Below are positions 131-17,826 of a stretch of 20,000 nucleotides of DNA, in pieces (position 1 is the stretch's first letter; the number at the start of each line of letters is the position of its first letter). The stretch is taken from the IMG/VR virus record IMGVR_UViG_2788500588_000003; one strand, given 5' to 3'. A program made the position numbers and the translations under genes. The notes beneath the pieces were generated by a model. The model was not told where the DNA came from. It searched no databases and was given only the letters and a program-made list of their open reading frames with translations. This DNA is from an uncultured virus (IMG/VR IMGVR_UViG_2788500588_000003). Taxonomy: Duplodnaviria > Heunggongvirae > Uroviricota > Caudoviricetes.

Positions 131-478
131 TTATAGTCTTGGCAAATTAAGAGTTTTAATTATATTTTTTAGTAATTCAGATACCTCGTGAATATCCAGG
201 TTGCCGTTGGTAATCAGTTCTAATAACCTTTCATCACTAATGGTACTTTCGCTCACATTTTTTTTCTTACTAATGGTTTGTCCATTATCAGGTTGGATTG
301 TTTGCTCAGTATATTTTCTTATTTCCCACGAGCCTTTGCTTATCCATATCTCTCTGATTTCTTCTTCAAAACCCAACCCACCATTTATATCCTTACTTTT
401 TAATACTAGATATGATAATTTTTCTGTTTTATCAGCACTTTGATCTGATAAATTTGATATAGCTTCTATAAGATTCAT
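131..478 (-). CDS. Hypothetical protein (115 aa), single-gene moron
   Basis: Strong RBS GGGAGGTGA upstream of ATG, own terminator, AT-rich; no recognisable family. Confidence 0.8.
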   Translation of the reverse strand: MNLIEAISNLSDQSADKTEKLSYLVLKSKDINGGLGFEEEIREIWISKGSWEIRKYTEQTIQPDNGQTISKKKNVSESTISDERLLELITNGNLDIHEVSELLKNIIKTLNLPRL

Positions 479-651: not shown

Positions 652-996
652 AAATATTGTGGTAAATTGTCGAGTGCTCTTTTCCGACTCGTGGTAGAGC
701 GACACCACGTTATTTTGTAACGAATTGTGTTCTAATTTTAGAGTGCATTTCCGTGCACTTGTTGATGTAGTAAGTTTGACTGAAATTATGGAAAGTGGAC
801 GAAGTTCACATATAAACCACTTCTTCAGTTTTATTTGCCTGTTCCCTATATCTCTTAAAAAATATGGGCCGGCCATGTATGTCTTGCTCCGAACAAGTTT
901 GTTCAGCGCGGGTCGGTCGTCGGTCTGTCTTTTCCTAATATTTAGGATTTTATAAATACCAAGGGAGGAAACCTTTACCGCACCGAACCTACCTCC
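618..996 (-). ncRNA. Putative structured late-leader RNA / ncRNA (~380 nt)
   Basis: Series of hairpins (964-996, 934-946, ~888-908, 779-829, 742-759, 669-709) between a candidate late promoter and a UUCG terminator; no convincing RBS-bearing ORF. Confidence 0.5.
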
Positions 997-997
997 G

Positions 998-1071
998 AGT
1001 TTACAATACATTTTTTCTATCACAAACTTTCGTACATATATTACATTTGTTCCTTCTGTTACATTTGTTCC
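998..1071 (-). promoter_or_regulatory. Probable late promoter with direct-repeat activator site
   Basis: 13-bp direct repeat TTACATTTGTTCC at 1041-1053 and 1059-1071, followed on the - strand by -10-like TATTGT/TAAACT (998-1008) without a good -35, as expected for an ArpU/RinA-activated promoter. Confidence 0.55.
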
Positions 1072-1149
1072 AATGTCAAGAAAAGTAATAATTTATTTAA
1101 TGCTCTACATCTGCAAGTAAGCAACAACTTACATGAGACATCAGTCAAT

Positions 1150-1220
1150 TAATTTAAGAGGAAAATAGCTTGACTTCACGAAACTTATGAAGTCAAGCTA
1201 TTTTCCTCTCTCTTAAATTA
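1150..1220 (-). terminator. Long perfect inverted repeat at the end of the three-gene moron (probable terminator/stabiliser)
   Basis: 22-bp perfect arms 1157-1178 / 1188-1209, 9-nt loop, extendable past a bulge to 1150/1220; abuts the stop codon at 1221. Confidence 0.75.
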
Positions 1221-1796
1221 TTATTTTTTAGAAGTTCCTAAATCATCATACTCTTGCAAAATTTCTTTATTACTTCTTTCAAAGTCAGACCCTACTCTTG
1301 AAAAGAAATTCCCAAAATGGTGAGAAATTTGTTCTAAATATGGATTCGTTGGTCGTAACCTTTTAGTTTGTTTTTTAGCAAAAGCATCTAAAAACGCATA
1401 AGGCAAGGTATGTAATTTAGAATAATCAATTATATATGACTTATCTAACACTTCATGTTCCTTATGTAAGATAAAATATCCTGGTCTACGTCCGGAATTG
1501 GTTTCGGAAACTAAATTTTTTGAATAAGCATTAATAGGATAGATGCTTGCACAAATCACTGATTCAATAGGTTTCCTACCTCTTTCTGGCTCATTTGCTA
1601 AGTCACAAGCTTGACTCATAACAATCAAATTTTTTGTTTCAACAAGAACTTCCGAATGTTTTTCTAAATTTTCAAAAGTAAAATCAGGAAGACTTTCTAT
1701 GTGATTAATTCCAATTGTAATAATAGGAACATCAAATAAAATATCTCCCTGTGTAATTAATTCAGTTGACTTTCCTAGATGGTAAAGAGAAGACAT
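1221..1796 (-). CDS. Hypothetical protein (191 aa), QGD...SQxCDL...RVG family; possible PemK/MazF-like fold effector
   Basis: Motifs ITQGDILFDVP, IVMSQACDL, YIIDY, RLRPTNPY...FFSRVG; TAATG coupling to the upstream gene; the fold assignment is inference. Confidence 0.75.
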   Translation of the reverse strand: MSSLYHLGKSTELITQGDILFDVPIITIGINHIESLPDFTFENLEKHSEVLVETKNLIVMSQACDLANEPERGRKPIESVICASIYPINAYSKNLVSETNSGRRPGYFILHKEHEVLDKSYIIDYSKLHTLPYAFLDAFAKKQTKRLRPTNPYLEQISHHFGNFFSRVGSDFERSNKEILQEYDDLGTSKK

Positions 1797-2353
1797 TATG
1801 AAAGGTCACTTCCCATCTCAACATTTTCTATTGCCTTAAAAGGAATATTAATTCTTGTTTTATTCACTGGGAAAGAAGGCTCTTCTCTTTCATAATTCAG
1901 ATTATCCTCTATACCATTCGAAGATAATACAACAGTTCTTTTAACTTCTCGGAAGGGCACATTGAGACGCACCTTATTAATTTCTACAGAAGGTTCTTCT
2001 CTTTCGTAATTAATAACTTTCTCGCGAAAATCTGAAAAGTTAGAAGCTAGTTGACTTTGAGAAGCGATGTTCTTCTTTTCAGCCATGGCTTTCATCCCCT
2101 TCACAATAGACGGACTTTGAGAAACAACGAACTTTGGTTGGTTTTTTGATGACATAATATGCGCATGTGCTGTCATCTGACTATCAAAACTCGAATTATA
2201 CTTTCCTACACTTTCACTAACTGAAGTTTTAACATTTTGTGGTGTAGCTGCTGGTGAGCATAGACTAACTACATTGCAAAAAGCAATAACAGCAGTAGCT
2301 TTAATAAAAGTGTTAACAGTTCTTTCTTTTTTATACGCTATTGTTGCTACCAT
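1796..2353 (-). CDS. Hypothetical protein (185 aa) with signal-peptide-like N-terminus, internal RBS/start (M90, nt 2086) and two 20-aa repeats
   Basis: RBS GGAAGGTGAG in the end of the upstream gene; repeats NYEREEPSVEINKVRLNVPF / NYEREEPSFPVNKTRINIPF. Confidence 0.8.
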   Translation of the reverse strand: MVATIAYKKERTVNTFIKATAVIAFCNVVSLCSPAATPQNVKTSVSESVGKYNSSFDSQMTAHAHIMSSKNQPKFVVSQSPSIVKGMKAMAEKKNIASQSQLASNFSDFREKVINYEREEPSVEINKVRLNVPFREVKRTVVLSSNGIEDNLNYEREEPSFPVNKTRINIPFKAIENVEMGSDLS

Positions 2354-2356
2354 ATA

Positions 2357-2761
2357 TTACTCACCTTCCTTTAAAAAAGTTACAGGTATGTGGAATGTAT
2401 TAAGTTTTTCCTCATTAAATAATACTTCTACAGAATAAAAACCAGAACCTTTGAAAGGTAAGTTATTGAATGATACCCCCAAAGTAAAGCCCATAAACAC
2501 TTCTTTGTTATCAACACTTCCTGGTGTGTCGTTAGGAACATGTATGAAGTCTGTATCAAAGAAATCATTGTTTTGAGGATCTTTGACTATTATTCTACAA
2601 GTATTATCCTCTAGTAAAGAGTAATCACATACAGTAAAAACAATATTTAAAGAAAATTCATCAGTGTTAACTTCTACAATATCTAGTGGACTAAAAACCC
2701 CACTCTGACTTCTAAAATTTTCATCGTTTTCACAAAAAACGAAATTAGTTAGCTTTGCCAT
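2357..2761 (-). CDS. Small acidic all-beta protein (134 aa), DUF6941-like
   Basis: RBS AGGAGA; pattern FVFCE...IIVKDP...FNNLPFKGSGFYSVEVLFNEE...IPV resembles DUF6941 from memory. Confidence 0.75.
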   Translation of the reverse strand: MAKLTNFVFCENDENFRSQSGVFSPLDIVEVNTDEFSLNIVFTVCDYSLLEDNTCRIIVKDPQNNDFFDTDFIHVPNDTPGSVDNKEVFMGFTLGVSFNNLPFKGSGFYSVEVLFNEEKLNTFHIPVTFLKEGE

Positions 2762-2804
2762 GTTTGTTCTCTCCTAAAACATATGATAAACCTTCCCTAG
2801 ACTA

Positions 2805-2833
2805 ATTATACACCACTGAGAGTTACTTTTGAA
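2805..2833 (-). promoter_or_regulatory. sigmaA promoter of the three-gene moron
   Basis: TTCAAA (2833-2828), 17 bp, TATAAT (2810-2805). Confidence 0.7.
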
Positions 2834-2880
2834 AATTTATTGATGAAATTTACTCTGTTATCGAAAAATGTTATTACTGA

Positions 2881-2926
2881 AAATAAAAAAGCCTTGGGAA
2901 ACCTATATAAATAAGTTTCCCAAGGT
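2881..2926 (-). terminator. Intrinsic terminator ending the early lytic operon
   Basis: CCTTGGGAAAC (2892-2902) / GTTTCCCAAGG (2915-2925) stem followed by a U-tract on the - strand. Confidence 0.85.
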
Positions 2927-2956
2927 TGTTAGTTACCTTAAAGAATTATTCCTACT

Positions 2957-3397
2957 TTATTGCACTATCATCTGATTCAAAATGTCATTTCTAACCCTAA
3001 ATATTGTAGTGCTAGATAATCTCATATGCTTACCAATAGCACGCATGCTATCACCATCCAGCAATCTATGGAGGACCTCAATCTCCCTGTCTCCGGTTAC
3101 TAGTGGTATACGCACTTGCACTTCCGCAATCTTTTGCTCATATTCCTTAATGCGATAATTAAGTGCATAAACTCTGCGTTGTACTTCTGTATACACTGGA
3201 TCACTTGTACCTCCACTTGCCTTCGGCAATGTTGCCTCAATACCATACATAGCCGTTTTCGCCCCAATGTAACTGTTATTATCAACCTTTGCAACTGGCT
3301 GTCTTGCTTCTTCAATGGTTTCAACCATCCATCGATAATTTTCAATCCACTGAAGTAAATTCTCTTTAGTTACTTTAATTTGCCCTTGTTTGCCCAT
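2957..3397 (-). CDS. Late-gene transcriptional activator, ArpU/RinA-like with C-terminal HTH
   Basis: Last gene of the early operon; TAMYGIEATLPKA..SDP motif; C-terminal HTH LDGDSMRAIGKHMRLSSTTIFRVR; RBS AGGAGG. Confidence 0.8.
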   Translation of the reverse strand: MGKQGQIKVTKENLLQWIENYRWMVETIEEARQPVAKVDNNSYIGAKTAMYGIEATLPKASGGTSDPVYTEVQRRVYALNYRIKEYEQKIAEVQVRIPLVTGDREIEVLHRLLDGDSMRAIGKHMRLSSTTIFRVRNDILNQMIVQ

Positions 3398-3415
3398 TAG
3401 GTTTGCCCTCCTAAG

Positions 3416-3499
3416 TGTGTTATAATGCTTGTACCAGATTGTCTTAAAAGGGCATGTACCAATTCGAGCTGTAGCGTCTGCAAACGCTGCGGCTTTTTT
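3416..3499 (+). ncRNA. Antisense mini transcription unit (extended -10 promoter, ~65-nt RNA, terminator)
   Basis: TGTGT-TATAAT at 3416-3426; stem GCTGTAGCGT/ACGCTGCGGC (3468-3493) plus T6; G-U pairs fit the + strand. Confidence 0.65.
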
Positions 3500-3536
3500 A
3501 TTTACTGCGTATATTCCTCATATTGTGCAGTAACCT

Positions 3537-4778
3537 CTATACTCCAACTGCATAACGACTGCTACCTGCACACATTTCAGGTAAATTAGCTCTCACTAAT
3601 GCGTCAGCAAAGGGTGGCGGCACGCTATTTCCTACCCTCTTAATCTGCTCTACTTTCTTACCTGGGTGCTGATAGTTACTTGGAAAGCCTTGTCCAGCAA
3701 ATAACTCATGCGGTTGTAACATACGTAATCCGATGTCAATAACATGGTAGCCATTAGTGCGAACTGCTGTTAATGCGAAACGATCTTTAGTAGTGATTGT
3801 ATGCAAAGGTTCACTTAGTCCCTGTGCTGTGCTTTGTCCGTAATATTTGGTTAAAAAAGCTGTCACAAGTCCAAATCTATTACCACCAGCTGTGATTGTG
3901 TGAAGTGGTGTGTTTAATGACAATCCTCTAACCTCTTTTTCTGATTGCTCAGTATAATAACTGATTAAAAAGGCTGCTTTATGTTCATCTGGAACCATAA
4001 AGGGCTTTTTTGCATCAATTACAAAGCGCTGCAAACCCTTTTCAATACGTTTTAGGGTGTTTGGTACTAGTGGTTTCTTTCTTTCAAATATAGATGGTGC
4101 GCCTATACTCCAATCAATTATTTCACTTGCTGTACGCCAAGGTTTTAATCTTCCTAATTGCACAGCTGGCGATTGAGGATCTCCGTGTGTTGGATTTGGC
4201 CATTCGATAGCTTTACCATCACATCTAGCAATCATAAAAAATCGCTTACGAATAGTAGGTGCACCATAATCACATGCATGCAATTCCCTAAAATCTACCT
4301 CGTAGCCTAATGACTCAAGTGCTTTCACAAAACTTTGAAATGTTTTCCCCTTCAATTCCTTAATAGGTTTACCATTTTCTATTGGTCCCCAATCTTTAAA
4401 TTCCTCTACATTTTCCAACATGATTACTCTAGGCTTAACTGCTAATGCCCACCTAACAGTAACCCACGCAAGACCTCTTATTTCTTGTTTAACTGGTGTG
4501 CCACCTTTTGCTTTTGAATGGTGAGTACAATCTGGACTAAACCAAGCAAGCCCTACTTTACGACCTCTACATGCTTCTTTAGGGTCTACATCCCAAACCG
4601 ATTCACAATAATGCTCTGTATCTGGATGATTTAACTTGTGCATCTCAATAGCAGCAGGATCATGATTAATTGCAATATCTACGCTCATTCCTGTTGCCAT
4701 TTCAATACCTGTACTTGCTCCTCCACCACCAGCGAAATTGTCTACAATTATTTCTCTAAATAAGCTTAATTGCTTCAC
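3537..4778 (-). CDS. DNA (cytosine-5) methyltransferase, phage type
   Basis: FAGGGG motif I, SPDC catalytic motif, ENV, RKR, C-terminal GNSV. Confidence 0.93.
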   Translation of the reverse strand: MKQLSLFREIIVDNFAGGGGASTGIEMATGMSVDIAINHDPAAIEMHKLNHPDTEHYCESVWDVDPKEACRGRKVGLAWFSPDCTHHSKAKGGTPVKQEIRGLAWVTVRWALAVKPRVIMLENVEEFKDWGPIENGKPIKELKGKTFQSFVKALESLGYEVDFRELHACDYGAPTIRKRFFMIARCDGKAIEWPNPTHGDPQSPAVQLGRLKPWRTASEIIDWSIGAPSIFERKKPLVPNTLKRIEKGLQRFVIDAKKPFMVPDEHKAAFLISYYTEQSEKEVRGLSLNTPLHTITAGGNRFGLVTAFLTKYYGQSTAQGLSEPLHTITTKDRFALTAVRTNGYHVIDIGLRMLQPHELFAGQGFPSNYQHPGKKVEQIKRVGNSVPPPFADALVRANLPEMCAGSSRYAVGV

Positions 4779-4817
4779 ATTAGCTACCTCCTTTACTGCA
4801 CAATATCTTTCAAATAC

Positions 4818-5036
4818 TCACCTAGCCCACCTACGCAAAAGACTAATCTGCTCAAGCTCTTTTCCGATGCTCCTTAGTTCTCTATAAACCTTGCATCCTC
4901 TGCATTTCTTACTTGGATCATAAGCTTTTCGCTTCGGACACCCTTTGCATTTGAGAAAAGCTATGTGGTCCTGCTGATTGATTAGCCTGGCTCTGCGTTG
5001 TTTAACTTCCTTGCGAACCGCGTTCACTTCCAGCAC
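4818..5036 (-). CDS. Small hypothetical Zn-finger-like protein
   Basis: CKGC...CRGC; overlaps the stop of the upstream gene. Confidence 0.7.
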   Translation of the reverse strand: MLEVNAVRKEVKQRRARLINQQDHIAFLKCKGCPKRKAYDPSKKCRGCKVYRELRSIGKELEQISLLRRWAR

Positions 5037-5449
5037 CCTACTTTAGCCTCTTTACGTGTTTTCCTAGCCTTTTTAAGTTCATCATGAGTAATCCAACCAC
5101 CATCAATCTTCGAGTACGTTAGAAGCTTTAATTCATGCGGATAACGATATTCAAATAACTTCTTCCTCAATTCAAATTGCTGTGTAACCATTCCCTTAAT
5201 ATCAACTACCTCTGTATGGCCATCTGCATAATGAACAGTAAAATCCGCATTGTAACCAATCTCACGATATTTCTTACCGTTCTTTTCGAACTTGGGCAAT
5301 AATACAAACCTTGGCTGTAATTCAAAGGCTGTCACAACGCCTTGTGCTTGTTGATGTTTCAAGTAATCGTAATACCTTGCTTCTATCGCTGAATCGAATG
5401 TAATTCCATCATGTACGACTTTTTTGTTTCCGTATTTTGCTTTGCTCAT
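5024..5449 (-). CDS. DUF1064 family protein (PD-(D/E)XK nuclease-like)
   Basis: SKAKYGNKK..DGITFDS..EA..Y; LQPRF; YNADF; VVDIKG. Confidence 0.88.
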   Translation of the reverse strand: MSKAKYGNKKVVHDGITFDSAIEARYYDYLKHQQAQGVVTAFELQPRFVLLPKFEKNGKKYREIGYNADFTVHYADGHTEVVDIKGMVTQQFELRKKLFEYRYPHELKLLTYSKIDGGWITHDELKKARKTRKEAKVGCWK

Positions 5450-5458
5450 GTTTTCCTC

Positions 5459-6280
5459 CTACACAATTCCAAAAAGTGTTTCTTGTATATATCCACGCTC
5501 AATTATTTGAGGGTTGAGCCACAAACTTTCACATTTTTCTTTTGCAGCTTCAGTTGTGGCCATCTTCGAAATTCTTGTCCAACCTCGTAAGATGTCATTG
5601 TACATATCGCTGTTGTAGCCACTAATCATGGCAAAACCTTGATGCTTATTTAAAGCCAGAAGTAATGTTTCGTGTTGCTCATTTGTCATTTCATGTGCAT
5701 AGTGTCGTTTTGTACGTGTGCTTAATAAATACGGCGGATCACTGTAAATCAAACAATCCTCTTTGTTGTAACGGCCTATTAATGTTGCAGCATCTAAATT
5801 TTCAATTTGGACATTTTGTAATCGCTCCGTTGCTTCTAAAACGACATCTGGTAGCTTACGCCAATCAGGTAATGCACTAAATGTTGTTGAGTCTACATTG
5901 TGGCGCCAGCCTGTACGGTCGCTTGTTTTACCTCCACGGGCCATCCAACAACGAACAAGGAATACTCTAGCTCTTTCTAAGTCACTTAACCGGCCTTGTA
6001 ATGCCTCAAAAGATGAAATGTATTCTTGTCTTGAATATGGAGTGAGTTGAATATGTTTAGCTAGCTGTTCCGGTTGTTCTCGAATGACTTTGAATAGATT
6101 CACGATATTGCCATCAATGTCGTTCACTGTTTCTATTTTTGAGGGTTGCTTGTTGAATAACACGGCACCACTACCAAAGTGAGTTTCAAGATACACATTG
6201 TGCTCTGGCATTTGACTTACTATCCATTCTGCTAAGTTCCACTTGCTACCCACGTAATTTAGAATTCTTTTCATGTTCAT
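5459..6280 (-). CDS. DNA adenine methyltransferase (Dam/D12 class)
   Basis: LNYVGSKW, HFGSGAV, VNDIDG, DPPY motifs; start may be 6274. Confidence 0.93.
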   Translation of the reverse strand: MNMKRILNYVGSKWNLAEWIVSQMPEHNVYLETHFGSGAVLFNKQPSKIETVNDIDGNIVNLFKVIREQPEQLAKHIQLTPYSRQEYISSFEALQGRLSDLERARVFLVRCWMARGGKTSDRTGWRHNVDSTTFSALPDWRKLPDVVLEATERLQNVQIENLDAATLIGRYNKEDCLIYSDPPYLLSTRTKRHYAHEMTNEQHETLLLALNKHQGFAMISGYNSDMYNDILRGWTRISKMATTEAAKEKCESLWLNPQIIERGYIQETLFGIV

Positions 6281-6557
6281 TCACCTTCCTCGTAATCATA
6301 CTCTCCGCATACTTCCTACAAGCTTTATATTTAAGCCTCATATCAGGTCCGTATCCGTTACCAGTCCTTTGCAGAGAACATTTATACCAATGTGTTTTGG
6401 AGTCACGTTCATGTTGTTTTTTCTCCAAGTAGTAACATGTTTTACATGTTGCATTCTCTGGTCCATAACCATATTTACGACACATACCATTGGGTTCGAT
6501 TTGTTTATTCTGCGGTGGTTCCTCTGGTAATCCTAGGTCAAATTCGATTTGCTCCAT
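6246..6557 (-). CDS. Hypothetical Cys-rich phage protein
   Basis: RBS GAGGTGA; CKTC...KC...AC pattern. Confidence 0.75.
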   Translation of the reverse strand: MEQIEFDLGLPEEPPQNKQIEPNGMCRKYGYGPENATCKTCYYLEKKQHERDSKTHWYKCSLQRTGNGYGPDMRLKYKACRKYAESMITRKVNEHEKNSKLRG

Positions 6558-6582
6558 CAGCTCACCTCAATCCCGTTATTCC

Positions 6583-7089
6583 TTAAAATGGTAAATCATC
6601 CTCACTAACCTCAATCGGTCCCTTACTATTAGCAAATGGATCTTCATCCACTCTCGTATAACTTGGCTGGTTATTATTACCGCCATAATTGCCCTGTGGT
6701 GGATTTTGATTCGTTCCACCTGTATTTGTACTAGATTGATAGTTTGGTGTGCTCTGTGCGCCTCCTGTGCTGTTTCTTGGCTCTAAGAATTGGATGCTGT
6801 CTGTTACAACGTCTGTTGTAAAAACACGCTTACCATCCTGCCCCTCATAGCTGCCTGTTTGGATTCGCCCTTCCAAACCTATTAAATTACCTTTCTTCAT
6901 GAAGTTGGCTAGATTCTCAGCTTGTTTACGCCATGCCATACAAGGGATGAAATCTGCCTGTTGCTCCCCTTCATTTTTGAATGGTCTGTTAACTGCCACT
7001 GTGAAGCGACATGATGCAATTCCGTTCGGTGTGTAGCGTAATTCAGGATCTTTTGTAAGTCGGCCAACTAAAACGACTCGGTTAATCAT
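6583..7089 (-). CDS. ssb: Single-stranded DNA-binding protein
   Basis: [20 protein letters not shown]... and acidic DDLPF tail. Confidence 0.98.
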
Positions 7090-7490
7090 GCTGTTACCCC
7101 CAATAGGTGCTTGTGTTCATAGATGTTGCCAATGACTTCGCCATCATCTAAATACAGCAAATGCAAGCCCATTAAGCAGTCATTTTCGCCTCTGAAGAAC
7201 TGAAACATCCCACCGTAATACTTAACAAGTAGATTTTCTGGTAATACTCCTGAAGTTTCATAAGTTAGTTTATTTACTCTTACAATGTCCCCCTCATAAA
7301 TCTCCTTGCTGTTTGCGTCCTTTAAGCCTGTGTACTGCATATACTGCAATCCGTGGTCATCCTCATTCAGAATAATGTTTACAGCCCTTACTGGATTGCA
7401 ATTGTATTCGACATGCCCATATAATTCGTTTGAATACACCATGATTTTTAATTCAGAATCCCACGCCCGAAACTTAATCTCTCTACTCAT
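7086..7490 (-). CDS. YopX family protein
   Basis: [34 protein letters not shown]. Confidence 0.93.
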
Positions 7491-7675
7491 GCAGCCATAG
7501 CCCCTTCCATTTTCATAATGAGATAATCCGTAGCCTCTTCGGCATCTTTCAAACCAACTAGGACCCTCAATTGCTCCAAACGGTTATATGCCATAGTTTC
7601 GTTTTGTTTGCCTCCAAAGCACTGGAACTGCCCTAAATACAGGATGATCTGGTCGATTAGGAATTGTTCATTCAT
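7487..7675 (-). CDS. Hypothetical phage protein (62 aa; start trimmed to MNEQF)
   Basis: RBS GGTGGTGA before ATG at 7675; ATGA overlap with the yopX-like gene. Confidence 0.7.
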   Translation of the reverse strand: MNEQFLIDQIILYLGQFQCFGGKQNETMAYNRLEQLRVLVGLKDAEEATDYLIMKMEGAMAA

Positions 7676-7880
7676 GAGCTTCACCACCCAAAGCTTCTCG
7701 AGCAATTTTGTAAGCTGGTGTTTCCCAACCTTCCATGATAGGTGCTTCAACTTCCATGACTTTTTCTAGTGCTTTACGAAGTCGTTCAATTTCCTCTTTC
7801 TGTTTTTCTAGATTTATAGCAATCATTGCTAATTCGATACCCGATAACTCTCTAGCTTCAGGTAGTGGTTTTTTCTTCAT
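7668..7880 (-). CDS. Hypothetical coiled-coil phage protein
   Basis: RBS GGGGAG; EIERLRKALE...IAREALGG pattern common in phage early regions. Confidence 0.75.
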   Translation of the reverse strand: MKKKPLPEARELSGIELAMIAINLEKQKEEIERLRKALEKVMEVEAPIMEGWETPAYKIAREALGGEAHE

Positions 7881-7883
7881 CCC

Positions 7884-8069
7884 TCATTCACTCCCCACTA
7901 ATTTGTTAAAAGCCTCACGGTTGCCAGTTTCCAAAGCTATGTCGATGGCATTTGCGATGTTAAACGCTTCAATTTCGCTCATAAGCTTGTCCATTTCTCT
8001 TTCAAGTTGCTCTCTGTGAAGTTCATTAGCTGCCTTTGCTACATCGTTTACAAGCTTCCAAAAGTCCAT
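7884..8069 (-). CDS. Small hypothetical protein, IDEAL-domain-like C-terminus
   Basis: RBS GGAGGT; IDIALETGNREAFNKL. Confidence 0.75.
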   Translation of the reverse strand: MDFWKLVNDVAKAANELHREQLEREMDKLMSEIEAFNIANAIDIALETGNREAFNKLVGSE

Positions 8070-8084
8070 CCCAAGACCTCCACT

Positions 8085-8270
8085 TCATTCAAATAGTTGA
8101 AAACTAATGATTACAACCGATTTATCAGGAAAATAATTTTTTCGTTCAAGATTTCTACCTTCCTCAACAATGTCGCCAATGTTTTGAATCGGTGTTGTTC
8201 GTCTTATCTCTGCATTAGCAAAGCCAGTATTATGAGAAAACGATACAAAGTATCGATATTTTTTATCCAT
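8085..8270 (-). CDS. Hypothetical phage protein (start probably MDKKY at 8270)
   Basis: RBS GGAGGGTGA before ATG 8270; an upstream GTG at 8306 is also possible. Confidence 0.7.
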   Translation of the reverse strand: MDKKYRYFVSFSHNTGFANAEIRRTTPIQNIGDIVEEGRNLERKNYFPDKSVVIISFQLFE

Positions 8271-8302
8271 CCCTTCACCCTCCATCAAGGGGCTGTTGCC
8301 CC

Positions 8303-9127
8303 TCACTGATTTAAAATTGCATTGAATTTACTCAAGCGACCTTTAGCGATTTCTCTACGAAAACTAGTAGCCTCATTTTTAACTGGTTGCGACATTTCGA
8401 TTAATCTATCAGGTATCCTCTTGCCTATTTGCTCTGGTAAATCTTTTGGATTGAGATTTGATGTTGCTAGAATAGGTTTTTTTCTACGACTACGGCCGTC
8501 AAATATTTGGAACATAGTTTCTAGCACCCAATCACTTATTTTTTCTGCCCCTAAGTCGTCGATAATCAACAAGTCACATATCATCAATGCTTTCATAATC
8601 TGCTGTTCACTCTCGTTATTGTCGCGATTGAAAGTAGCTTTGATTTTGCTTAGTAACTCCGGCATGGATATGAAAACTATTACCTTACCTTGAGCAGTTA
8701 AATAATTGTGTACTGCTGCAGCTAAATGGGTTTTACCATTCCCTACATCGCCCCACAACAAGAGAGATTCAGCGCCAAATTCTTCGAAATGTTCAGCGTA
8801 ATATTTAGCTGCCTTAAAAGCTTTTTCAGATCCTTGCCGCATAAGGAAGTTTTCAAAACTAGCATTCAAGTATTTATCACCAATATTACTGATAGAGAAT
8901 AAAGTGCGTACCTCATTTTCTTCTTTGGCTCGTATCAAACGTTCAACCTCTGCCTTTTTAATGTCCTGCTCACATTGGCATACAGGTTGCACCCAACGAG
9001 TTCTACCAAGGACCTCAACTGGAATCGCCTTGATTTCATTTCCGCAATGACTGCATATTTCGCTAGAGTGAGAAGCCGTCATATTCTTCGTTACTATGTC
9101 GTTCATAGTTTTGGCTATTCCTTGCAT
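8303..9127 (-). CDS. DnaC/IstB-like helicase loader ATPase
   Basis: N-terminal CxxC..CxC, Walker A GDVGNGKT, Walker B LLIIDDLG, TSN; follows the initiator. Confidence 0.93.
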   Translation of the reverse strand: MQGIAKTMNDIVTKNMTASHSSEICSHCGNEIKAIPVEVLGRTRWVQPVCQCEQDIKKAEVERLIRAKEENEVRTLFSISNIGDKYLNASFENFLMRQGSEKAFKAAKYYAEHFEEFGAESLLLWGDVGNGKTHLAAAVHNYLTAQGKVIVFISMPELLSKIKATFNRDNNESEQQIMKALMICDLLIIDDLGAEKISDWVLETMFQIFDGRSRRKKPILATSNLNPKDLPEQIGKRIPDRLIEMSQPVKNEATSFRREIAKGRLSKFNAILNQ

Positions 9128-9977
9128 CTCGTTGAGCCTCCTTCATTTTCAACTGCAATTGCTGATAAGTAGTGATCATGTCTTTACGCCAGTTGATTAA
9201 CGTACCTTCTGCATATTTAATTTTGTTACGAGCATTGTTTAATACTGCATTTTGTAAAGCAGCTAGGATTAGATCCACATCTTTGTAATCATCCAAGATG
9301 TAACCAAGGTGTTCAGCTATTGTTGGAAGAACAGGTGTAATGTTTTGATTTGTAAATTCAACTAATCTAGCAAAATCATATTGAGAAGAAACCGACTGAC
9401 TACTCTTTTGTTCTTGTTCTTTTTCTTCTTCTCTTTCTTGTTCTTCTTCTTGTTCTTGTTCTTCTTCTTCCCTATAGTCTATGGAAGTGGTATTGATATG
9501 GTATGGATACGGTATCGAACCCTCGCCATTACTAGTGTTAAGTACTTTTGGCTCACTTTTTTCTTCTAACAGTATTGATACGGTATCGATACGGTATCCT
9601 AACTGTTCCAAAGAGGTTACATAGCTTCTTACAAAAGGTATATGCTTCACAGCAAGCAGCTCTTTTTCGATACATTTTTTCACTTTCGGTGAGTTGATAA
9701 AGTTGTACTTTGCCCAGTTATTTAACATGATTTCTTTTGTTGATTCGTTGTAAGTGATCTTTCCATACTCTACGAACCTTTGTAGTAGCTTCTGAACCGT
9801 TTCTCGGTTATATCCTGTGTGCATTTCTATGACTCTATATGGCAATTCGTAGATGCCACATTGTGTTGTATTGCCATTCGTCATCAAATACAGATAGAAG
9901 TATTTCTCCTCTGGTGTAAGATCCAATACAAAGCCGTCATCCCAAAACGTTGTGTGTACATTTCTGTATTTAGCCAT
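9063..9977 (-). CDS. Phage replication initiator (N-terminal wHTH, C-terminal DnaD-like domain)
   Basis: FWDD..LTPEEKYFYLYLMTN..TTQCGIY; C-terminal KYAEGTLINW; internal iterons. Confidence 0.9.
   Translation of the reverse strand: MAKYRNVHTTFWDDGFVLDLTPEEKYFYLYLMTNGNTTQCGIYELPYRVIEMHTGYNRETVQKLLQRFVEYGKITYNESTKEIMLNNWAKYNFINSPKVKKCIEKELLAVKHIPFVRSYVTSLEQLGYRIDTVSILLEEKSEPKVLNTSNGEGSIPYPYHINTTSIDYREEEEQEQEEEQEREEEKEQEQKSSQSVSSQYDFARLVEFTNQNITPVLPTIAEHLGYILDDYKDVDLILAALQNAVLNNARNKIKYAEGTLINWRKDMITTYQQLQLKMKEAQRDARNSQNYERHSNEEYDGFSL
9490..9599. repeat. Iterons, probable phage replication origin
   Basis: Two blocks (9490-9518, 9572-9599) of 11-bp units GTATnGATAYG inside the initiator gene, next to a TTCTTG/TTCTTC tract (~9405-9470). 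Confidence 0.8.
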
Positions 9978-9992
9978 TTGCCCTCACCCCTC

Positions 9993-10403
9993 CTAGTACG
10001 TTTTAATCGGCTCCCAATCGTTCGCGTAAGCAGCCTCATTAAATTTATCTACTGGCATATCAATGTTGACTGGCTCATATGTTTCAAGCCATTTTGCGAC
10101 GTCGTAGCTGATAAAAGCTCTATCACCAAATTTTTCATGCATGTATGCCTTATGTGCCTCCGAATGTGCTATTACTTCATCTATTTCTGGTTGCCCTGGC
10201 TTTTGACGATCATTACGAACAATGATGAAAGCATCTTGAATATCATCCATCGTTATATCACCATCTGGATCACTGAAATCTGCTACATCAATATCTGCTG
10301 CAAGGTAACGTCCTTCTTTATCACGATGTTTTAATACAATGACAGGAACAGTAGAAATAATTTCATCCTCGCCACCGAAGATGTTTTGTTGAAATATTTG
10401 CAT
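9993..10403 (-). CDS. Hypothetical acidic phage protein
   Basis: RBS GGAGGGTGA; operon context. Confidence 0.8.
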   Translation of the reverse strand: MQIFQQNIFGGEDEIISTVPVIVLKHRDKEGRYLAADIDVADFSDPDGDITMDDIQDAFIIVRNDRQKPGQPEIDEVIAHSEAHKAYMHEKFGDRAFISYDVAKWLETYEPVNIDMPVDKFNEAAYANDWEPIKTY

Positions 10404-10448
10404 GGTTCACCCTCCATATTTTCAATATTCAAATTTTTAATCACAGAC

Positions 10449-10631
10449 TTATTCAGTGATCGGTTTGCACTTTTGACAAAGCCTAATACTATATGGTCTT
10501 TCTCCTTTGAAAGCCGAACCGAAAAGGTAAGTATATTTAGAACGCTTCTCGATAGGCTTTTGGCAATCGTCACAAATGTATTCCTTTCGAGCTACCTGAA
10601 CTGCTTCTTTAATCACATTACTCAAAATCAC
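10449..10631 (-). CDS. Small Zn-ribbon-like hypothetical protein
   Basis: RBS GGAGGT; ARKEYICDDC...CQKC. Confidence 0.7.
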   Translation of the reverse strand: MILSNVIKEAVQVARKEYICDDCQKPIEKRSKYTYLFGSAFKGERPYSIRLCQKCKPITE

Positions 10632-10637
10632 AACCTC

Positions 10638-11339
10638 CTACGGTATAAAAATCATCTTGCCTGTTGCCCTTGCTACTGCTTTAAAGATGCGCTCTATGTT
10701 GCTGTTGCCATCAGATAAATGCAGTAGGTGTATTTCTTCGACCTTTGATAAGTCACTAGCTTTAAAAAACTCTAATAAGTTTTCTAAACTGAAATGAGAC
10801 TTCATAACACGCTTTTTCATAGCTGGATGAATACGGCCACTCTCGACATTTTCATCTAATGTTTGTTGATCATAATTACACTCAATCATGATGTGAGTTA
10901 AGCCTTTGAACCGGTATTTCACATAGTAGGTATCAGTAGCAAATAACAGCTTGCCACCGTTGTCTGACTGTAGTAAAAAACCTAACGGCTCATTTACATC
11001 GTGCTGCACATCAAACGGCAATATGGTCCATGAACCTACTCTAAATTGTTCTTTGCTTTTAACCGTTTTAATCCGATGATGATCAAGCGATAATGCCTCT
11101 CTAGTACCTTGTGACATATAAACATCAAGCCCCCGATTTAACACCGATTCCACGCCTTTACAGTGATCTTTGTGTTCATGGGTAACTAATACGCCACCAA
11201 GGTTAGAAGTCTCGAAATTAACGCCTTGCTGTATCTGTTTGAAGCTGATACCACACTCTAGGAGTAGAGGGGTGCTACCATCTGTAATGTGATAGCAATT
11301 TCCCTTACTGCCAGTTGCTAGAGTTTTGATTTGAATCAT
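10638..11339 (-). CDS. MBL-fold metallo-hydrolase (probable nuclease partner of Bet)
   Basis: GSKGN, THEHKDH, HD, TDT, ECNYD, HLS motifs. Confidence 0.93.
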   Translation of the reverse strand: MIQIKTLATGSKGNCYHITDGSTPLLLECGISFKQIQQGVNFETSNLGGVLVTHEHKDHCKGVESVLNRGLDVYMSQGTREALSLDHHRIKTVKSKEQFRVGSWTILPFDVQHDVNEPLGFLLQSDNGGKLLFATDTYYVKYRFKGLTHIMIECNYDQQTLDENVESGRIHPAMKKRVMKSHFSLENLLEFFKASDLSKVEEIHLLHLSDGNSNIERIFKAVARATGKMIFIP

Positions 11340-12067
11340 TAGAACCCTGGTCCATCGCTTTGTTCTTCTGGAAACACTTCTTCAAAAGTGGCATCGATAA
11401 TCTCTTTGTGTTCAGGCGTCAAACTTGGATCTTCTGATTTAATATCAAGGTCCTCAGTGTTAGCATTTTGCTTTATTTCTTGTTCTACATTCATTTCAAC
11501 AGATTGTGCACCCTTATCCTCTTCTGTGTACATTGCTCCCAAACTTTCTGGGAATGCTTCACGTAGACCATTTACAATTGCCGATTTACGAATCATATTC
11601 ATCGGCATATCTTTCCACGTAGCTTGATTTTTACTAAACTCTTTGAAATCTATTTTTGTAATAACAGGCACTTTTCGGTCCTTTCGGTACACCTTGCACC
11701 ATCCACCAATAAGCTTGTCCTTATCTAACTTCACAGCACCCTCAACTTCGACTAATTGACCATCTCGCTCAACAATGATTCCTGCCTCAAATCCTTCGTA
11801 TTTATCGTGACCCTCCGCACGTTTCATGAACGCTTCTTTTGATACAATAATTTGTGCTGGACTTGAACCAAATTTGATTAAATATGCTTCATTTAAAAAT
11901 GGATTTAGCTTTTGGAATTTACAAAGATTCATGAACATAACTACTTCTTGTTCACTTACACTTCCGTTACCACGTACTAGATACTGCATTACTGTATTGC
12001 CTGATAGTTTTACTTCTTCACCATTTACTTCAAATTTGATAGGCGACGTCATTACTGCATTTGTCAT
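11339..12067 (-). CDS. bet: Phage recombination protein Bet/RecT (single-strand annealing)
   Basis: LCKFQKLNPFLNEAYLIKF, MIRKSAIVNGLREAFP, GAMYTEED. Confidence 0.9.
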   Translation of the reverse strand: MTNAVMTSPIKFEVNGEEVKLSGNTVMQYLVRGNGSVSEQEVVMFMNLCKFQKLNPFLNEAYLIKFGSSPAQIIVSKEAFMKRAEGHDKYEGFEAGIIVERDGQLVEVEGAVKLDKDKLIGGWCKVYRKDRKVPVITKIDFKEFSKNQATWKDMPMNMIRKSAIVNGLREAFPESLGAMYTEEDKGAQSVEMNVEQEIKQNANTEDLDIKSEDPSLTPEHKEIIDATFEEVFPEEQSDGPGF

Positions 12068-12069
12068 TT

Positions 12070-14097: not shown

Positions 14098-14111
14098 ATC
14101 CTTTGCCCTCC

Positions 14112-14169
14112 TGTGGTAGAATGATATAAATATTGTTTTTGCAGACCACTGTTCGCGCAGTGGTTTTTT
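14112..14169 (+). ncRNA. Antisense mini transcription unit (~40-nt RNA)
   Basis: TGTGG-TAGAAT (14112-14122); terminator ACCACTG/CAGTGGT (14145-14164) plus T-tract. Confidence 0.6.
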
Positions 14170-14287
14170 ATTTTGATGGATAACCACCAATCTACTTACA
14201 AAACTGTCGTCGCAACTGGGGCCTATCGGCTGTCGCTCGCAAATGGTCATGGCGTACTGTGCTAGGTTTTTTAAATAGATTGCTAAT

Positions 14288-14373
14288 CCCATCAAGCAAC
14301 TTACAGTGGCAAAGCATAACCGTAGGGAGACGGTGCTGTAAGCTGCTTGACGAGAGCGAGATAACTCTCGCAA
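14288..14373 (-). other. Structured RNA element: 19-bp stem with inner hairpin and an overlapping alternative hairpin
   Basis: Arms 14288-14306 / 14336-14354 pair on the - strand with three G-U pairs. Confidence 0.65.
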
Positions 14374-14384
14374 ACGTCAAAACT

Positions 14385-14450
14385 TGTGATATAATAGATT
14401 TGTATATGTTGTCTCGCTGTTTAATCTTCGCTCGATTAAGCAGCTTTTTT
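14385..14450 (+). ncRNA. Antisense mini transcription unit (~50-nt RNA)
   Basis: TGTGA-TATAAT (14385-14395); terminator GCTGTTTAATC/GATTAAGCAGC (14416-14444) plus T6. Confidence 0.65.
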
Positions 14451-14538
14451 ATTGCCATTTAACTTCTCCAACACCCTCTTATCACAGAAGAAATGTACAT
14501 ATATTAACCTCTGTTTCAATGTCATGTGTCGCCACGCT

Positions 14539-14781
14539 CTAGGCTTGATGCGCAAGTTTCTTCACCACCTGAACAAGTATTCCTCGCTGGTTTAAATCAG
14601 CAACCGTTGCCCATAACTCTTTTTTCTTATGAAGTTTTTCTAGTTGATTCAACGAATTATGTAGGTCTCGTTCTAGTTGTTTTGCTATGTTGATACGACC
14701 TGCTTTTACATGTAGTTTGATTACATCTGTTAGATCATCGATACATCTGATTTCACGCTCAATTTGTTCATCTATATTCAT
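14539..14781 (-). CDS. Hypothetical helical phage protein
   Basis: Start overlaps the stop of the upstream gene; RBS AGGTAGG. Confidence 0.75.
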   Translation of the reverse strand: MNIDEQIEREIRCIDDLTDVIKLHVKAGRINIAKQLERDLHNSLNQLEKLHKKKELWATVADLNQRGILVQVVKKLAHQA

Positions 14782-15305: not shown

Positions 15306-15376
15306 CCTTTCTATTAAATTAAGGTCACATTTCAGTCTAAAGTTAACTTGGTTGCAACCATCAAGTTTCAGTAATT

Positions 15377-15833: not shown

Positions 15834-15849
15834 TTTTTAACCTCCTACT

Positions 15850-17809: not shown

Positions 17810-17826
17810 ATAGTGAGGTGATTATG

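What the first reader, a model, noticed from the sequence alone, without database searches (positions are those of the whole stretch)
1221..2833. Insulated three-gene moron resembling an uncharacterised chaperone-antitoxin-toxin defence system
Seen: an AT-rich, tightly coupled operon (3-bp gap, then TAATG overlap) with its own sigmaA promoter, an upstream terminator (2881-2926) and a downstream 22-bp hairpin, so it can be expressed in the lysogen. Gene 1 is a small acidic beta-rich DUF6941-like protein. Gene 2 is a low-complexity protein with two beta-strand-like repeats. Gene 3 has QGD / SQACDL / RVG motifs that I suspect adopt a PemK/MazF-like fold. Known: toxin-antitoxin-chaperone systems (HigBA-SecB, CmdTAC) in prophages defend against phages via a chaperone-dependent antitoxin. 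Inference: an analogous tripartite system with a non-SecB partner.
Basis: partly seen in the sequence, partly recalled or inferred. Interest (0 to 1): 0.82.

Follow-up and report, generated by a model that had tools for sequence, protein, structure and literature searches.

The report
Prophage three-gene MazF-fold toxin-like module
A prophage carries a self-contained three-gene operon whose last gene has the fold of the MazF/CcdB bacterial toxins and belongs to a large unnamed family, which makes it a good candidate for an undescribed three-part toxin-antitoxin or anti-phage system.

Summary
Three tightly coupled minus-strand genes (g1 2357-2761, g2 1796-2353, g3 1221-1796) lie in an AT-rich island. 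The island sits between a terminator plus promoter-like site and a 23-bp hairpin, inside a prophage.

- **g3.** It has no Pfam, NCBIfam or PADLOC hit. It belongs to a large unnamed family: 847 cluster representatives at E<=1e-3. With a 134-sequence alignment AlphaFold2 gives pLDDT 95.5. The 15 best solved-structure matches are all MazF/Kid/CcdB/ToxN-type toxins (best Z 11.4).
- **g1.** It is a DUF6941 protein.
- **g2.** It has no detectable homologue. It carries an N-proximal hydrophobic segment and a significant C-terminal duplication.

The layout "first gene / fast-evolving middle gene / g3" recurs in 12 loci with DUF6941. In most other relatives a TIGR04255 protein takes the first place, and once an AAA_21 ATPase does. 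So middle gene plus g3 is the core and the first gene is exchangeable.

Contigs of one RNA-seq run cover the operon without a mismatch.

Toxicity, neutralisation by g2, a chaperone or sensor role for g1, and phage defence are all inferred, not shown. The scan had not noted this module before; it holds only notes on DUF6941 in chaperone operons.

The parts
2892..2925 (-). Intrinsic-terminator-like hairpin (15-bp stem, T-run) that ends the upstream HTH/late-regulator-like gene (2957-3397) and insulates the module
   Evidence: sequence
2805..2833 (-). Promoter-like site TTCAAA-17-TATAAT, 44 nt upstream of the g1 start
   Evidence: 10 of 12 matches; consensus match only, such sites are not enriched over shuffles
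2357..2761 (-). g1: 134-aa DUF6941-family beta-rich protein, the exchangeable first component
   Evidence: (phrog_5881, E 1e-6)
1796..2353 (-). g2: 185-aa fast-evolving middle protein. Hydrophobic segment at about residues 16-32, polar linker, two C-terminal repeats (residues 111-138 and 149-176). Candidate antitoxin or adaptor
   Evidence: (no homologue)
1221..1796 (-). g3: 191-aa member of a large unnamed family with the CcdB/MazF fold. Candidate toxin or effector
1150..1220 (-). Downstream hairpin (core 23-bp stem at 1157-1209), likely 3' end or insulator of the operon
   Evidence: dG -40.2, z -10.4

Best explanation
The region is a prophage-borne, independently transcribed three-gene module that works as a three-part toxin-antitoxin-like system, most likely for abortive infection or phage exclusion.

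Shown here:
- g3 has the CcdB/MazF toxin fold.
- g3 belongs to a large unannotated family with its own invariant residues (Q16, C64, P152) and near-invariant ones (G17, Q62, D65, R146, E155, R167).
- g3 is almost always preceded, within about 20 nt, by a small fast-evolving gene.
- That pair is preceded by one of several unrelated first genes (DUF6941, TIGR04255, AAA_21 ATPase).
- The operon is present in contigs of an RNA library.

Inferred:
- g3 is a growth-arresting effector. It is probably an RNA-cleaving or RNA-binding one, like all MazF/Kid/ToxN relatives, but it would use a different set of catalytic residues.
- g2 is the labile neutraliser. It is made in a fixed ratio by translational coupling, and its duplicated C-terminal strand-like motifs may each occupy one subunit of a g3 dimer.
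- g1 (DUF6941) keeps g2 soluble or stable through its hydrophobic segment, or acts as the sensor. Loss or diversion of g1 during infection would then free g3, by analogy with SecB-type chaperones in HigBAC and CmdTAC.
For: **Fold.**
- AlphaFold2 with the 134-row alignment A2 gives pLDDT 95.5 and pTM 0.85.
- VIA-align against 48,161 chains: ranks 1-15 are all MazF/Kid/CcdB/CptN/AbiQ/ToxN. The best is MazF-mt3 (8zws_A), Z 11.4, rmsd 2.5 over 103 of 105 residues. The next unrelated fold has Z 4.5.
- The low-confidence first model (pLDDT 65) already gave the same ranking.
- Foldseek against the PDB: all listed rows (ranks 1-50, similar chains left out) are MazF-family endoribonuclease toxins (MazF, YdcE, MoxT), E from 3e-4, TM by target 0.55-0.72.
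- Foldseek against BFVD: of ranks 2-9, seven are phage proteins named PemK/MazF or endoribonuclease; rank 5 is Brochothrix phage Gp171.
- The ESM Atlas's own model matches a PemK cluster with TM 0.60.

**Family size.** 847 representatives at E<=1e-3 and 209 at E<=1e-10 among 1.84 billion.

**Conserved layout.**
- 12 unique loci have DUF6941 + middle gene + g3.
- 38 loci have a TIGR04255-like first gene by my own HMM. NCBIfam confirmed 8 of the 11 I put through it.
- One locus has an AAA_21/PtuA-like ATPase first.
- The gap from the middle-gene stop to the g3 start is within +/-20 nt in 54 of 77 loci and within +/-60 nt in 71 of 77.
- The antitoxin-before-toxin order with overlapping stop and start is that of mazEF, kis-kid and ccdAB (established knowledge).

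**Middle proteins.**
- g2 has no homologue among 5.8 billion clusters, although g1 and g3 relatives at 57-70% identity share three contigs.
- In TIGR04255-type loci the middle proteins share a C-terminal tail of about 45 aa. An HMM built from 20 tails and searched against 3,197 ORFs hit only middle proteins down to E 0.27, always at or within a few residues of the C-terminus. Twelve of these (11 distinct sequences) at E<0.01 were not seeds.
- All 12 DUF6941-type middle proteins have an N-proximal hydrophobic 17-mer.
- 5 of the 12 have a clear C-terminal duplication.

**Context.**
- The window is a prophage: integrase, repressor, RecT-like, DnaD/DnaC-like and SSB genes, read by eye.
- Relatives sit beside a prophage endolysin (L015) and a type I R-M methylase (L007).

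**Expression.** Contigs of RNA run X1 cover 1205-1680 and 1726-2732 with 0 differences. One contig spans the g3 start, all of g2 and most of g1.

**Chaperone lead for g1.** A DUF6941 gene lies directly upstream of groES-groEL in L103. Earlier scan notes place DUF6941 between dnaK and dnaJ (I did not check this).
Against: - No toxicity, binding or defence assay exists.
- g3 shows no sequence relation to PemK: no Pfam hit and hhalign probability 0.2% against a Bacillus MazF.
- By my own reading of the secondary-structure register, the MazF catalytic Arg (before strand 2) and Thr (end of strand 3) have no conserved counterpart. An RNase activity is therefore not implied by the fold. CcdB, a gyrase poison, matches almost as well (Z 10.2).
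- An invariant Cys is unusual for this superfamily and is unexplained.
- g2's hydrophobic segment (Kyte-Doolittle 1.91 over 17 residues) may be a membrane anchor. If so, the repeats could lie outside the cell, away from a cytoplasmic g3.
- The tail HMM of TIGR04255-type middle proteins does not detect g2 or any DUF6941-type middle protein. Homology of the two kinds of middle protein is therefore not shown.
- DUF6941 is mostly found away from g3: in the Bacillota sample 20 of 401 genomes have it and only 2 have it beside g3. Its chaperone link rests on one locus of mine plus unchecked notes.
- None of the three proteins or their relatives matches PADLOC v2.
- tblastn finds no relative in 50,697 isolated phages or 72,556 plasmids.
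- RNA contigs cannot show strand, ends or level, and they come from one run of one study.
Confidence: 0.5

Rival explanations
1. It is a plain two-gene toxin-antitoxin addiction pair (g2-g3) that stabilises the prophage. The first gene would be a passenger or general accessory, and the module would have no role in phage defence.
For: The middle gene plus g3 is the invariant core, while the first gene is swapped among unrelated families. The gene order and stop/start overlap are typical of type II TA pairs.
Against: A first gene is present and translationally coupled in most loci with enough upstream DNA. About 43 of 59 loci have one, counting TIGR04255-like, DUF6941 and AAA_21. In the DUF6941 type, the hydrophobic segment of the middle protein co-varies with the first gene. 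Relatives lie in prophage slots after the lysis genes and beside an R-M system.
Confidence: 0.2
2. It is a membrane-associated superinfection-exclusion or envelope module. g2 would be a single-pass membrane protein with external repeats. g3 would be a non-toxic MazF-fold adaptor or RNA-binding regulator and g1 an Ig-like partner.
For: A hydrophobic 17-mer (Kyte-Doolittle 1.1-2.4) occurs in all 12 DUF6941-type middle proteins. Basic residues precede it in g2. DUF6941 is a beta-sandwich-like domain according to the Atlas and earlier notes. The MazF catalytic pair is not conserved in g3 (plus inspection).
Against: Most TIGR04255-type middle proteins lack any hydrophobic segment, yet they keep the same operon and a conserved tail. 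The segment starts at residues 16-39 even where the start codon is fixed by an ATGA overlap, so it is not a canonical signal peptide. Neither g1 nor g3 has a hydrophobic stretch that I could see in their translations (by eye, no signal-peptide predictor was run). Every characterised member of the fold is a toxin.
Confidence: 0.15
3. g3 is a cysteine-dependent enzyme (for example a peptidase or modifier) built on a MazF-like barrel. It would act on the conserved C-terminal tail of the middle protein, or on a phage protein. It would not be an RNase or gyrase poison.
For: C64 is invariant in 134 sequences, inside an S-Q-x-C-D motif. Q16, D65, R146, E155 and R167 are invariant or nearly invariant. 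The middle proteins carry a conserved or duplicated C-terminal peptide.
Against: There is no invariant His for a Cys-His pair. Matches to cysteine-peptidase folds are weak (Z about 3.1). No precedent exists in this superfamily.
Confidence: 0.1

Closest known systems
MazF/PemK/Kid type II toxins with MazE/PemI/Kis antitoxins
   Same: Same SH3-like barrel plus C-terminal helix (Z 8.1-11.4 over nearly whole chains). A small, translationally coupled gene lies directly upstream. A G-D motif opens strand 1, and a hydrophobic strand 2 ends in a polar-Asp motif.
   Different: No sequence-level membership. g3 is about 70 residues longer, with insertions and an extra helix. Its invariant residues differ and include a Cys. 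The upstream protein has no AbrB or RHH DNA-binding domain that Pfam could detect. A third, upstream gene is present.
Toxin-antitoxin-chaperone (TAC) systems: M. tuberculosis HigBA-SecB, E. coli HigBAC and CmdTAC
   Same: Three co-oriented genes. A candidate labile middle protein carries an aggregation-prone hydrophobic element. The accessory protein is modular and could act as stabiliser and phage sensor. In TAC systems the chaperone senses a phage tail or capsid protein (abstracts of 10.1101/2024.02.24.581848 and PMC11618068; PMC5105189 and PMC6377645 seen only in the search listing).
   Different: The accessory protein is DUF6941 (or TIGR04255 or AAA_21), not SecB-like, and it is encoded first, not last. 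The hydrophobic element is N-proximal, not a C-terminal ChAD extension. The toxin fold is MazF-like, not HigB or an ADP-ribosyltransferase. No chaperone activity is shown.
Type III toxins ToxN/AbiQ/CptN (anti-phage abortive infection)
   Same: Same superfamily fold (Z 5.0-7.9). They are carried on phage-related or mobile DNA and have a proven abortive-infection role (established knowledge).
   Different: There is no tandem RNA antitoxin repeat array upstream of g3; two protein genes lie there instead. The structural match is weaker than to MazF.
CcdB gyrase poison
   Same: The fold match is nearly as good as to MazF (Z 10.2, rmsd 2.4, 95 of 95 residues). The antitoxin gene lies upstream.
   Different: No sequence relation. 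g3 is about twice as long. No target can be inferred.

Membership tests
CcdB/MazF (PemK) toxin superfamily | SH3-like beta-barrel with a C-terminal helix, superposable over the whole toxin chain | tested here: met
   Model pLDDT 95.5. VIA Z 11.4, rmsd 2.5, 103 of 105 residues, with ranks 1-15 all in the superfamily. Foldseek PDB and BFVD agree. Atlas TM 0.60.
CcdB/MazF (PemK) toxin superfamily | Sequence match to Pfam PF02452 PemK_toxin | tested here: not met
   No Pfam hit for g3 or for the 134 family members. hhalign of A2 against a PF02452-positive Bacillus MazF gives probability 0.2%.
CcdB/MazF (PemK) toxin superfamily | MazF catalytic Arg before strand 2 and Thr/Ser at the end of strand 3 | tested here: inconclusive
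   I mapped the register only by eye, from secondary structure and family conservation. No conserved Arg or Thr lies at those places. No residue-level structural alignment was available.
CcdB/MazF (PemK) toxin superfamily | Growth inhibition neutralised by the product of the upstream gene | not testable with these tools
   Needs expression assays.
Toxin-antitoxin-chaperone (TAC) systems | Dedicated SecB-like chaperone | tested here: not met
   g1 matches DUF6941 only. None of the three proteins has a SecB hit.
Toxin-antitoxin-chaperone (TAC) systems | Antitoxin with a C-terminal chaperone-addiction (ChAD) extension | tested here: inconclusive
   g2 has a hydrophobic element, but it is N-proximal (residues 16-32). 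The C-terminus holds the duplicated motif. Binding was not tested.
Toxin-antitoxin-chaperone (TAC) systems | Three co-oriented, co-transcribed genes conserved as a unit | tested here: met
   12 unique loci have the same three-gene order with DUF6941. Coupling distances are short. One RNA contig spans the g1-g2-g3 junctions, which does not prove a single transcript.
Pfam DUF6941 (PF22091), for g1 | Score at or above the gathering threshold (27 bits) | tested here: inconclusive
   g1 scores 21.1 bits. Its relatives at 61-64% identity, P0011 and P0013, carry PF22091. Six of seven orthologous first genes score 29.9-39.8 bits. Atlas feature score 0.95 and TM 0.85 to DUF6941 clusters.
Type III toxin-antitoxin (ToxIN/AbiQ) | Tandem direct repeats encoding an RNA antitoxin directly upstream of the toxin gene | tested here: not met
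   The only array TRF reports in 900-3100 (1044-1072, period 9, 3.2 copies, score 30) lies downstream of g3, and there is none upstream of it. The only longer direct repeats found are the coding duplications inside g2.
Known or candidate defence systems in PADLOC-DB v2.0.0 | Any component matching a PADLOC model | tested here: not met
   g1, g2 and g3 give nothing below E 0.05. Of 134 g3 relatives, 5 have single chance-level hits. Of 29 neighbouring or related proteins, one has a chance-level hit.

The most novel reading that the evidence does not exclude
The window holds one member of a widespread, undescribed class of modular three-component abortive-infection systems. A MazF-fold effector with its own cysteine-containing active site would be held in check by a hypervariable adaptor or antitoxin. 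One of at least three interchangeable, unrelated first proteins (DUF6941, TIGR04255, AAA_21 ATPase) would act as the infection sensor. DUF6941 would then be a new, non-SecB holdase-type chaperone family, which would also explain its presence in groESL and dnaK operons.
Probability: 0.3. Interest if true: 0.85.

Novelty: new variant of a known kind. Interest (0 to 1): 0.72.

Why it matters
If g3 is a toxin, a family of at least 847 sequence clusters would join the MazF/CcdB superfamily. These clusters span Bacillota, Actinomycetota, Planctomycetota, Acidobacteriota, Thermotogota and phages, and they are currently annotated only as hypothetical proteins.

The family would come with a new catalytic signature and a new three-part regulatory logic.

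The exchangeable first gene would give functions to two orphan families, DUF6941 and TIGR04255. My full-text searches found no paper on either.

It would also extend the "chaperone as phage sensor" principle of TAC systems beyond SecB.

Finally, it is a directly testable prophage-encoded defence candidate in a Bacillus-type lysogen.

Tried and rejected
**Structure and binding**

**Sequence-level links of g3 to solved structures or MazF**
- phmmer gave only chance LRR hits.
- The A2 profile gave one chance hit.
- hhalign against MazF gave probability 0.2%.

**Links for the first genes**
- DUF6941 and TIGR04255 profiles against PDB sequences gave nothing significant.
- DUF6941 against TIGR04255 by hhalign gave probability 0.3%, so the two are not related by sequence.

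**Middle proteins**
- The tail HMM of TIGR04255-type middle proteins finds no DUF6941-type middle protein, g2 included. The resemblance I saw by eye (K-A-x-P type motifs) is not supported statistically.

**Searches in phage, plasmid and viral collections**
- Megablast of 1000-3000 and of 3000-20000 against 50,697 phage records found no match.
- tblastn of g3, and of a central family member (L064), against phages and plasmids found no match.
- Close g3 relatives in viral contigs: only L012 again.
The middle genes of the nearest relatives were therefore not seen.

**Defence and RNA libraries**
- PADLOC gave nothing.
- Rfam gave only spurious miRNA-model hits on the hairpin.
- No tRNA genes were found.
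- No ToxI-like repeats were found.

**Genome and earlier findings**
- No whole genome is held for the window.
- Earlier findings by sequence and by place returned nothing.

**RNA run X1**
- Most of 3336-17000, the replication and other early genes, has no contig cover.
- The module, ORF 131-478 and the repressor gene do have cover.
I therefore do not count it as evidence of silence, only as the reason why uniform DNA carry-over looks unlikely.
Full report
**1. The observation**

The window is a prophage arm. From 20000 leftwards I read, by eye from the translations:
- an integrase (18825-20000 +), an ImmA-like protein and a repressor-like HTH protein (17818-18228 +);
- minus-strand early genes, namely a Cro-like protein, an anti-repressor-like protein, a large SMC/AAA-like protein, RecT-like, metallo-beta-lactamase-like, DnaD-like, DnaC-like and SSB proteins, and two DNA methyltransferases;
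- a 146-aa protein with a C-terminal HTH (2957-3397; weak GerE/HTH hits).

The finding follows directly after that gene. One search gives three minus-strand ORFs:

| Gene | Coordinates | Length |
|---|---|---|
| g1 | 2357-2761 | 134 aa |
| g2 | 1796-2353 | 185 aa |
| g3 | 1221-1796 | 191 aa |

Other features of the region:
- The sequence shows the 3-nt gap between g1 and g2 and the TAATG overlap between g2 and g3.
- GC drops to 0.29-0.35 over 1001-3000, against 0.38-0.44 to the right.
- One search finds a terminator-like hairpin at 2925..2892 and the region's best promoter-like site (TTCAAA-17-TATAAT, 2833..2805).
- Such promoter-like sites are not enriched over shuffles (7 found, 8.9 expected), so the promoter is only a consensus match.
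- The downstream hairpin is very stable: 23-bp core at 1157-1209, dG -40.2 kcal/mol, z -10.4.

**2. What g3 is**

g3 has no Pfam, NCBIfam or PADLOC match and only a marginal PHROG hit.
- The word-indexed search found six relatives at 42-68% identity.
- A profile of these seven sequences, run exhaustively, found 847 cluster representatives at E<=1e-3 and 209 at E<=1e-10.
- In an alignment of 134 of them (A2), Q16, C64 and P152 are invariant.
- In the same alignment W4, G17, Q62, D65, F125, R146, E155, F161, R167 and P171 are at least 90% conserved.
- None of the 134 has a meaningful Pfam or PADLOC hit.
- The Atlas lists only "hypothetical protein" clusters, in Actinomycetota, Planctomycetota, Acidobacteriota and Uroviricota.

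The fold evidence:
- AlphaFold2 with seven sequences gave a mediocre model (pLDDT 65). With A2 it gave pLDDT 95.5 and pTM 0.85.
- The exhaustive structural search with the good model puts 15 CcdB/MazF-superfamily toxins at ranks 1-15.
- Among these are MazF-mt3 (Z 11.4, rmsd 2.5, 103 of 105 residues), S. aureus MazF (Z 11.2) and CcdB (Z 10.2).
- Kid scores Z 8.9, CptN 7.9, AbiQ 5.6 and ToxN 5.4. The next fold scores Z 4.5.
- Foldseek on the PDB, on BFVD, and both searches on the weaker model agree. The Atlas's independent model also matches a PemK cluster (TM 0.60).

It is not a sequence-level member. hhalign of A2 against a PF02452-positive Bacillus MazF gives probability 0.2%. By my reading of the strand register, the MazF catalytic Arg and Thr have no conserved counterpart. 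The conserved residues of this family, including an invariant Cys in an S-Q-x-C-D motif, are its own.

**3. What g1 and g2 are**

g1:
- It is a DUF6941 protein. It scores below Pfam's threshold (21.1 bits).
- Its relatives at 61-64% identity carry PF22091.
- The Atlas gives a feature score of 0.95 and TM 0.85 to DUF6941 clusters.

g2:
- It has no homologue at all in 5.8 billion clusters. Yet g1 and g3 relatives of 57-70% identity lie together on three contigs of matching lengths (2525, 4331 and 6806 nt). The gene between them therefore evolves much faster.
- It has a basic N-terminus and a hydrophobic stretch (best 17-mer from residue 16, Kyte-Doolittle 1.91).
- It has a polar linker and two C-terminal repeats. 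These score 93 against a shuffled mean of 27.8 (sd 3.8). The DNA copies are 79% identical and 114 nt apart.

**4. Conservation of the module**

I collected loci from several sources:
- Distant g3 relatives in genomes: Bacillus pacificus L001, a Bacillota MAG L003, G365 L008.
- Viral contigs L012, L015, L018 and L019.
- Metagenomes L023, L024, L027 and L030.

All of these show the same three genes in the same order, with stop/start overlaps or gaps under 20 nt.

The DUF6941 assignment of the first genes:
- Pfam confirms DUF6941 for 6 of the 7 first genes I tested; the seventh scores 23.6 bits.
- All seven match phrog_5881.
- The four metagenome cases rest on my own HMM (E 4e-17 to 6e-41).

Counts across all loci:
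- Before counting I dropped L005, L006 and L021 (duplicates) and L020 (the MazF locus). I then collapsed the rest by the last 100 residues of g3. Some near-duplicates remain.
- This left 90 loci: 12 of DUF6941 type, 38 with a TIGR04255-like first gene by my HMM, and 40 unassigned.
- Of the 59 loci with at least 1400 nt upstream, the split is 11, 30 and 18.
- NCBIfam confirmed TIGR04255 in 8 of the 11 proteins I tested: L002, L007, L013, L014, L031, L042, L049 and L051. It did not confirm L009, L011 or L016. L031 came from the "unassigned" set.
- In L040 the first gene is an AAA_21/PtuA-like ATPase (PF13304, E 1e-21).
- DUF6941 and TIGR04255 are unrelated by profile comparison.

The stop of the middle gene lies within +/-20 nt of the inferred g3 start in 54 of 77 loci and within +/-60 nt in 71 of 77.

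The middle proteins of TIGR04255-type and unassigned loci share a C-terminal tail of about 45 aa.
- I built an HMM from 20 tails and searched 3,197 ORFs.
- Down to E 0.27 it hit only middle proteins, always at or within a few residues of the C-terminus.
- Twelve of these at E<0.01 (11 distinct sequences) were not seeds.
- It does not detect DUF6941-type middle proteins.

The DUF6941-type middle proteins instead all carry the N-proximal hydrophobic 17-mer (Kyte-Doolittle 1.1-2.4; 12 of 12). In 5 of 12 they also carry a clear C-terminal duplication.

The stable core is therefore "fast-evolving middle protein + MazF-fold protein". The first gene is an exchangeable third part.

**5. Context and expression**

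- L015 has the module after a PlyL-type endolysin amidase (E 1e-56).
- By eye, L012 and L019 (and L014, for its TIGR04255-type module) show the same placement after lysis genes.
- L007 lies directly upstream of a type I R-M methylase (E 2e-95).
- L003 lies next to a sigma-like gene and a tape-measure-like gene (by eye).
- In a sample of 401 Bacillota genomes, 6 have a g3 relative and 20 have DUF6941. Only two genomes, G001 and G365, have the two adjacent. DUF6941 is thus a wider family that this module has recruited.
- In one sampled genome (L103) DUF6941 lies directly upstream of groES-groEL.
- Earlier notes of this scan report DUF6941 between dnaK and dnaJ in candidate-phyla bacteria. I did not check that. 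These are leads towards a proteostasis role, nothing more.

One RNA-seq run (X1, kept as contigs) holds 77% of the sampled words of 1100-3000. Its contigs lie on the window without a single difference:

| Window range | Lies on |
|---|---|
| 137-456 | ORF 131-478 |
| 686-1103 | intergenic region downstream of the hairpin |
| 1205-1680 | g3 |
| 1726-2732 | g3 start, all of g2, most of g1 |
| 17863-18272 | repressor gene |
| a few short pieces | elsewhere in the window |

Contigs cannot show strand, ends, level or a single transcript, and this is one run of one study. What can be said is that RNA-library contigs cover the whole operon and bridge its gene junctions. This fits expression in the lysogen.

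**6. How it most likely works**

Steps that are shown:
- the fold of g3 and the size of its family;
- the conserved three-gene layout and tight coupling;
- the hypervariability of the middle protein;
- the exchangeable first gene;
- the prophage and defence-island neighbourhoods;
- the presence of the operon in an RNA library.

Steps that are inferred:
- g3 is a growth-arresting effector.
- g2 is its labile neutraliser. This rests on gene order as in mazEF, kis-kid and ccdAB, and on a conserved or duplicated C-terminal peptide that could fill the two sites of a dimer.
- g1 stabilises g2 or senses infection. The analogy is with SecB-type chaperones, which guard an aggregation-prone antitoxin element and are diverted by phage tail or capsid protein. 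I saw only the abstracts of 10.1101/2024.02.24.581848 and PMC11618068.

I put about 0.5 on this three-part toxin-antitoxin or abortive-infection reading. The rivals are:

| Rival | Confidence |
|---|---|
| Plain addiction pair with an accessory gene | 0.2 |
| Membrane-associated exclusion module with a non-toxic g3 | 0.15 |
| Cysteine-dependent enzyme acting on the middle protein's tail | 0.1 |

**7. Comparison with known systems, and novelty**

The module works like a MazEF-type pair extended to a TAC-like trio, but it is not a member of either.
- PF02452 membership fails.
- There is no SecB.
- The hydrophobic element is N-proximal, not a C-terminal ChAD.
- The accessory gene comes first, not last.
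- There is no ToxI-type RNA array.
- No component is in PADLOC v2.
- Full-text searches for "DUF6941" and "TIGR04255" returned 0 papers each. Subscription journals and supplements are not covered by that search.

I class it as a new variant of a known kind. It is a large, unnamed MazF-fold family in a modular three-gene system.

**8. Limits**

- No binding or toxicity test was possible.
- No residue-level superposition was available.
- The neighbourhood counts rest partly on HMMs that I built myself.
- The middle genes of the closest relatives could not be fetched.
- The window's own genome is not held.

Noticed in passing
window 131-478 (-): A 115-aa ORF of unknown function lies downstream of the hairpin. 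It has no Pfam hit. An RNA-run contig (137-456, 0 differences) covers it. It may be a further lysogen-expressed moron gene.
   Followed up: partly
window 1041-1079 (-): Two 13-nt direct repeats (1071-1059 and 1053-1041, read) lie just after a TTGACA hexamer (1079-1074). TRF reports only a weak period-9 array at 1044-1072. They may form an operator-like site. An RNA-run contig covers 686-1103.
   Followed up: no
L103:1486-3354 (genome G211): A DUF6941 gene (E 2.4e-25 to PF22091) lies directly upstream of groES and groEL. This echoes earlier scan notes that place DUF6941 inside dnaK operons.
   Followed up: partly
L040:953-3171: Here the first gene of the module is a 430-aa AAA_21/PtuA-like ATPase (PF13304, E 1e-21) in place of DUF6941 or TIGR04255. 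A 134-aa middle gene and a g3 relative follow it.
   Followed up: partly
L010:1-1941: A distant g3-like domain (E 2e-12 to 8e-12 in my local HMM searches; 2.6e-11 in the genome search) forms the C-terminal part of a 325-aa protein. That protein is encoded right after a histidine-kinase gene. This may be a fused, signalling-linked form of the fold.
   Followed up: no
L009:1501-2058 (genome G175): The g3 relative is split into two ORFs (84 aa and 71 aa); the genome search reports one TAA inside the match. No middle gene remains beside a 239-aa first gene. The module looks decayed.
   Followed up: no
window 3534 to 5547: One RNA-run contig joins 3534 to 5547, skipping 2012 nt that include the C5-methyltransferase gene. 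Only 21 nt lie on the shorter side and the depth is 5.4. This is probably an assembly artefact or a related prophage that lacks the segment.
   Followed up: no
ESM Atlas hit for g1: The Atlas model of g1 superposes (TM 0.72 by query) on part of a 462-aa caspase-domain (Peptidase_C14) protein cluster. This hints that DUF6941-like domains can be fused to effector proteases.
   Followed up: no
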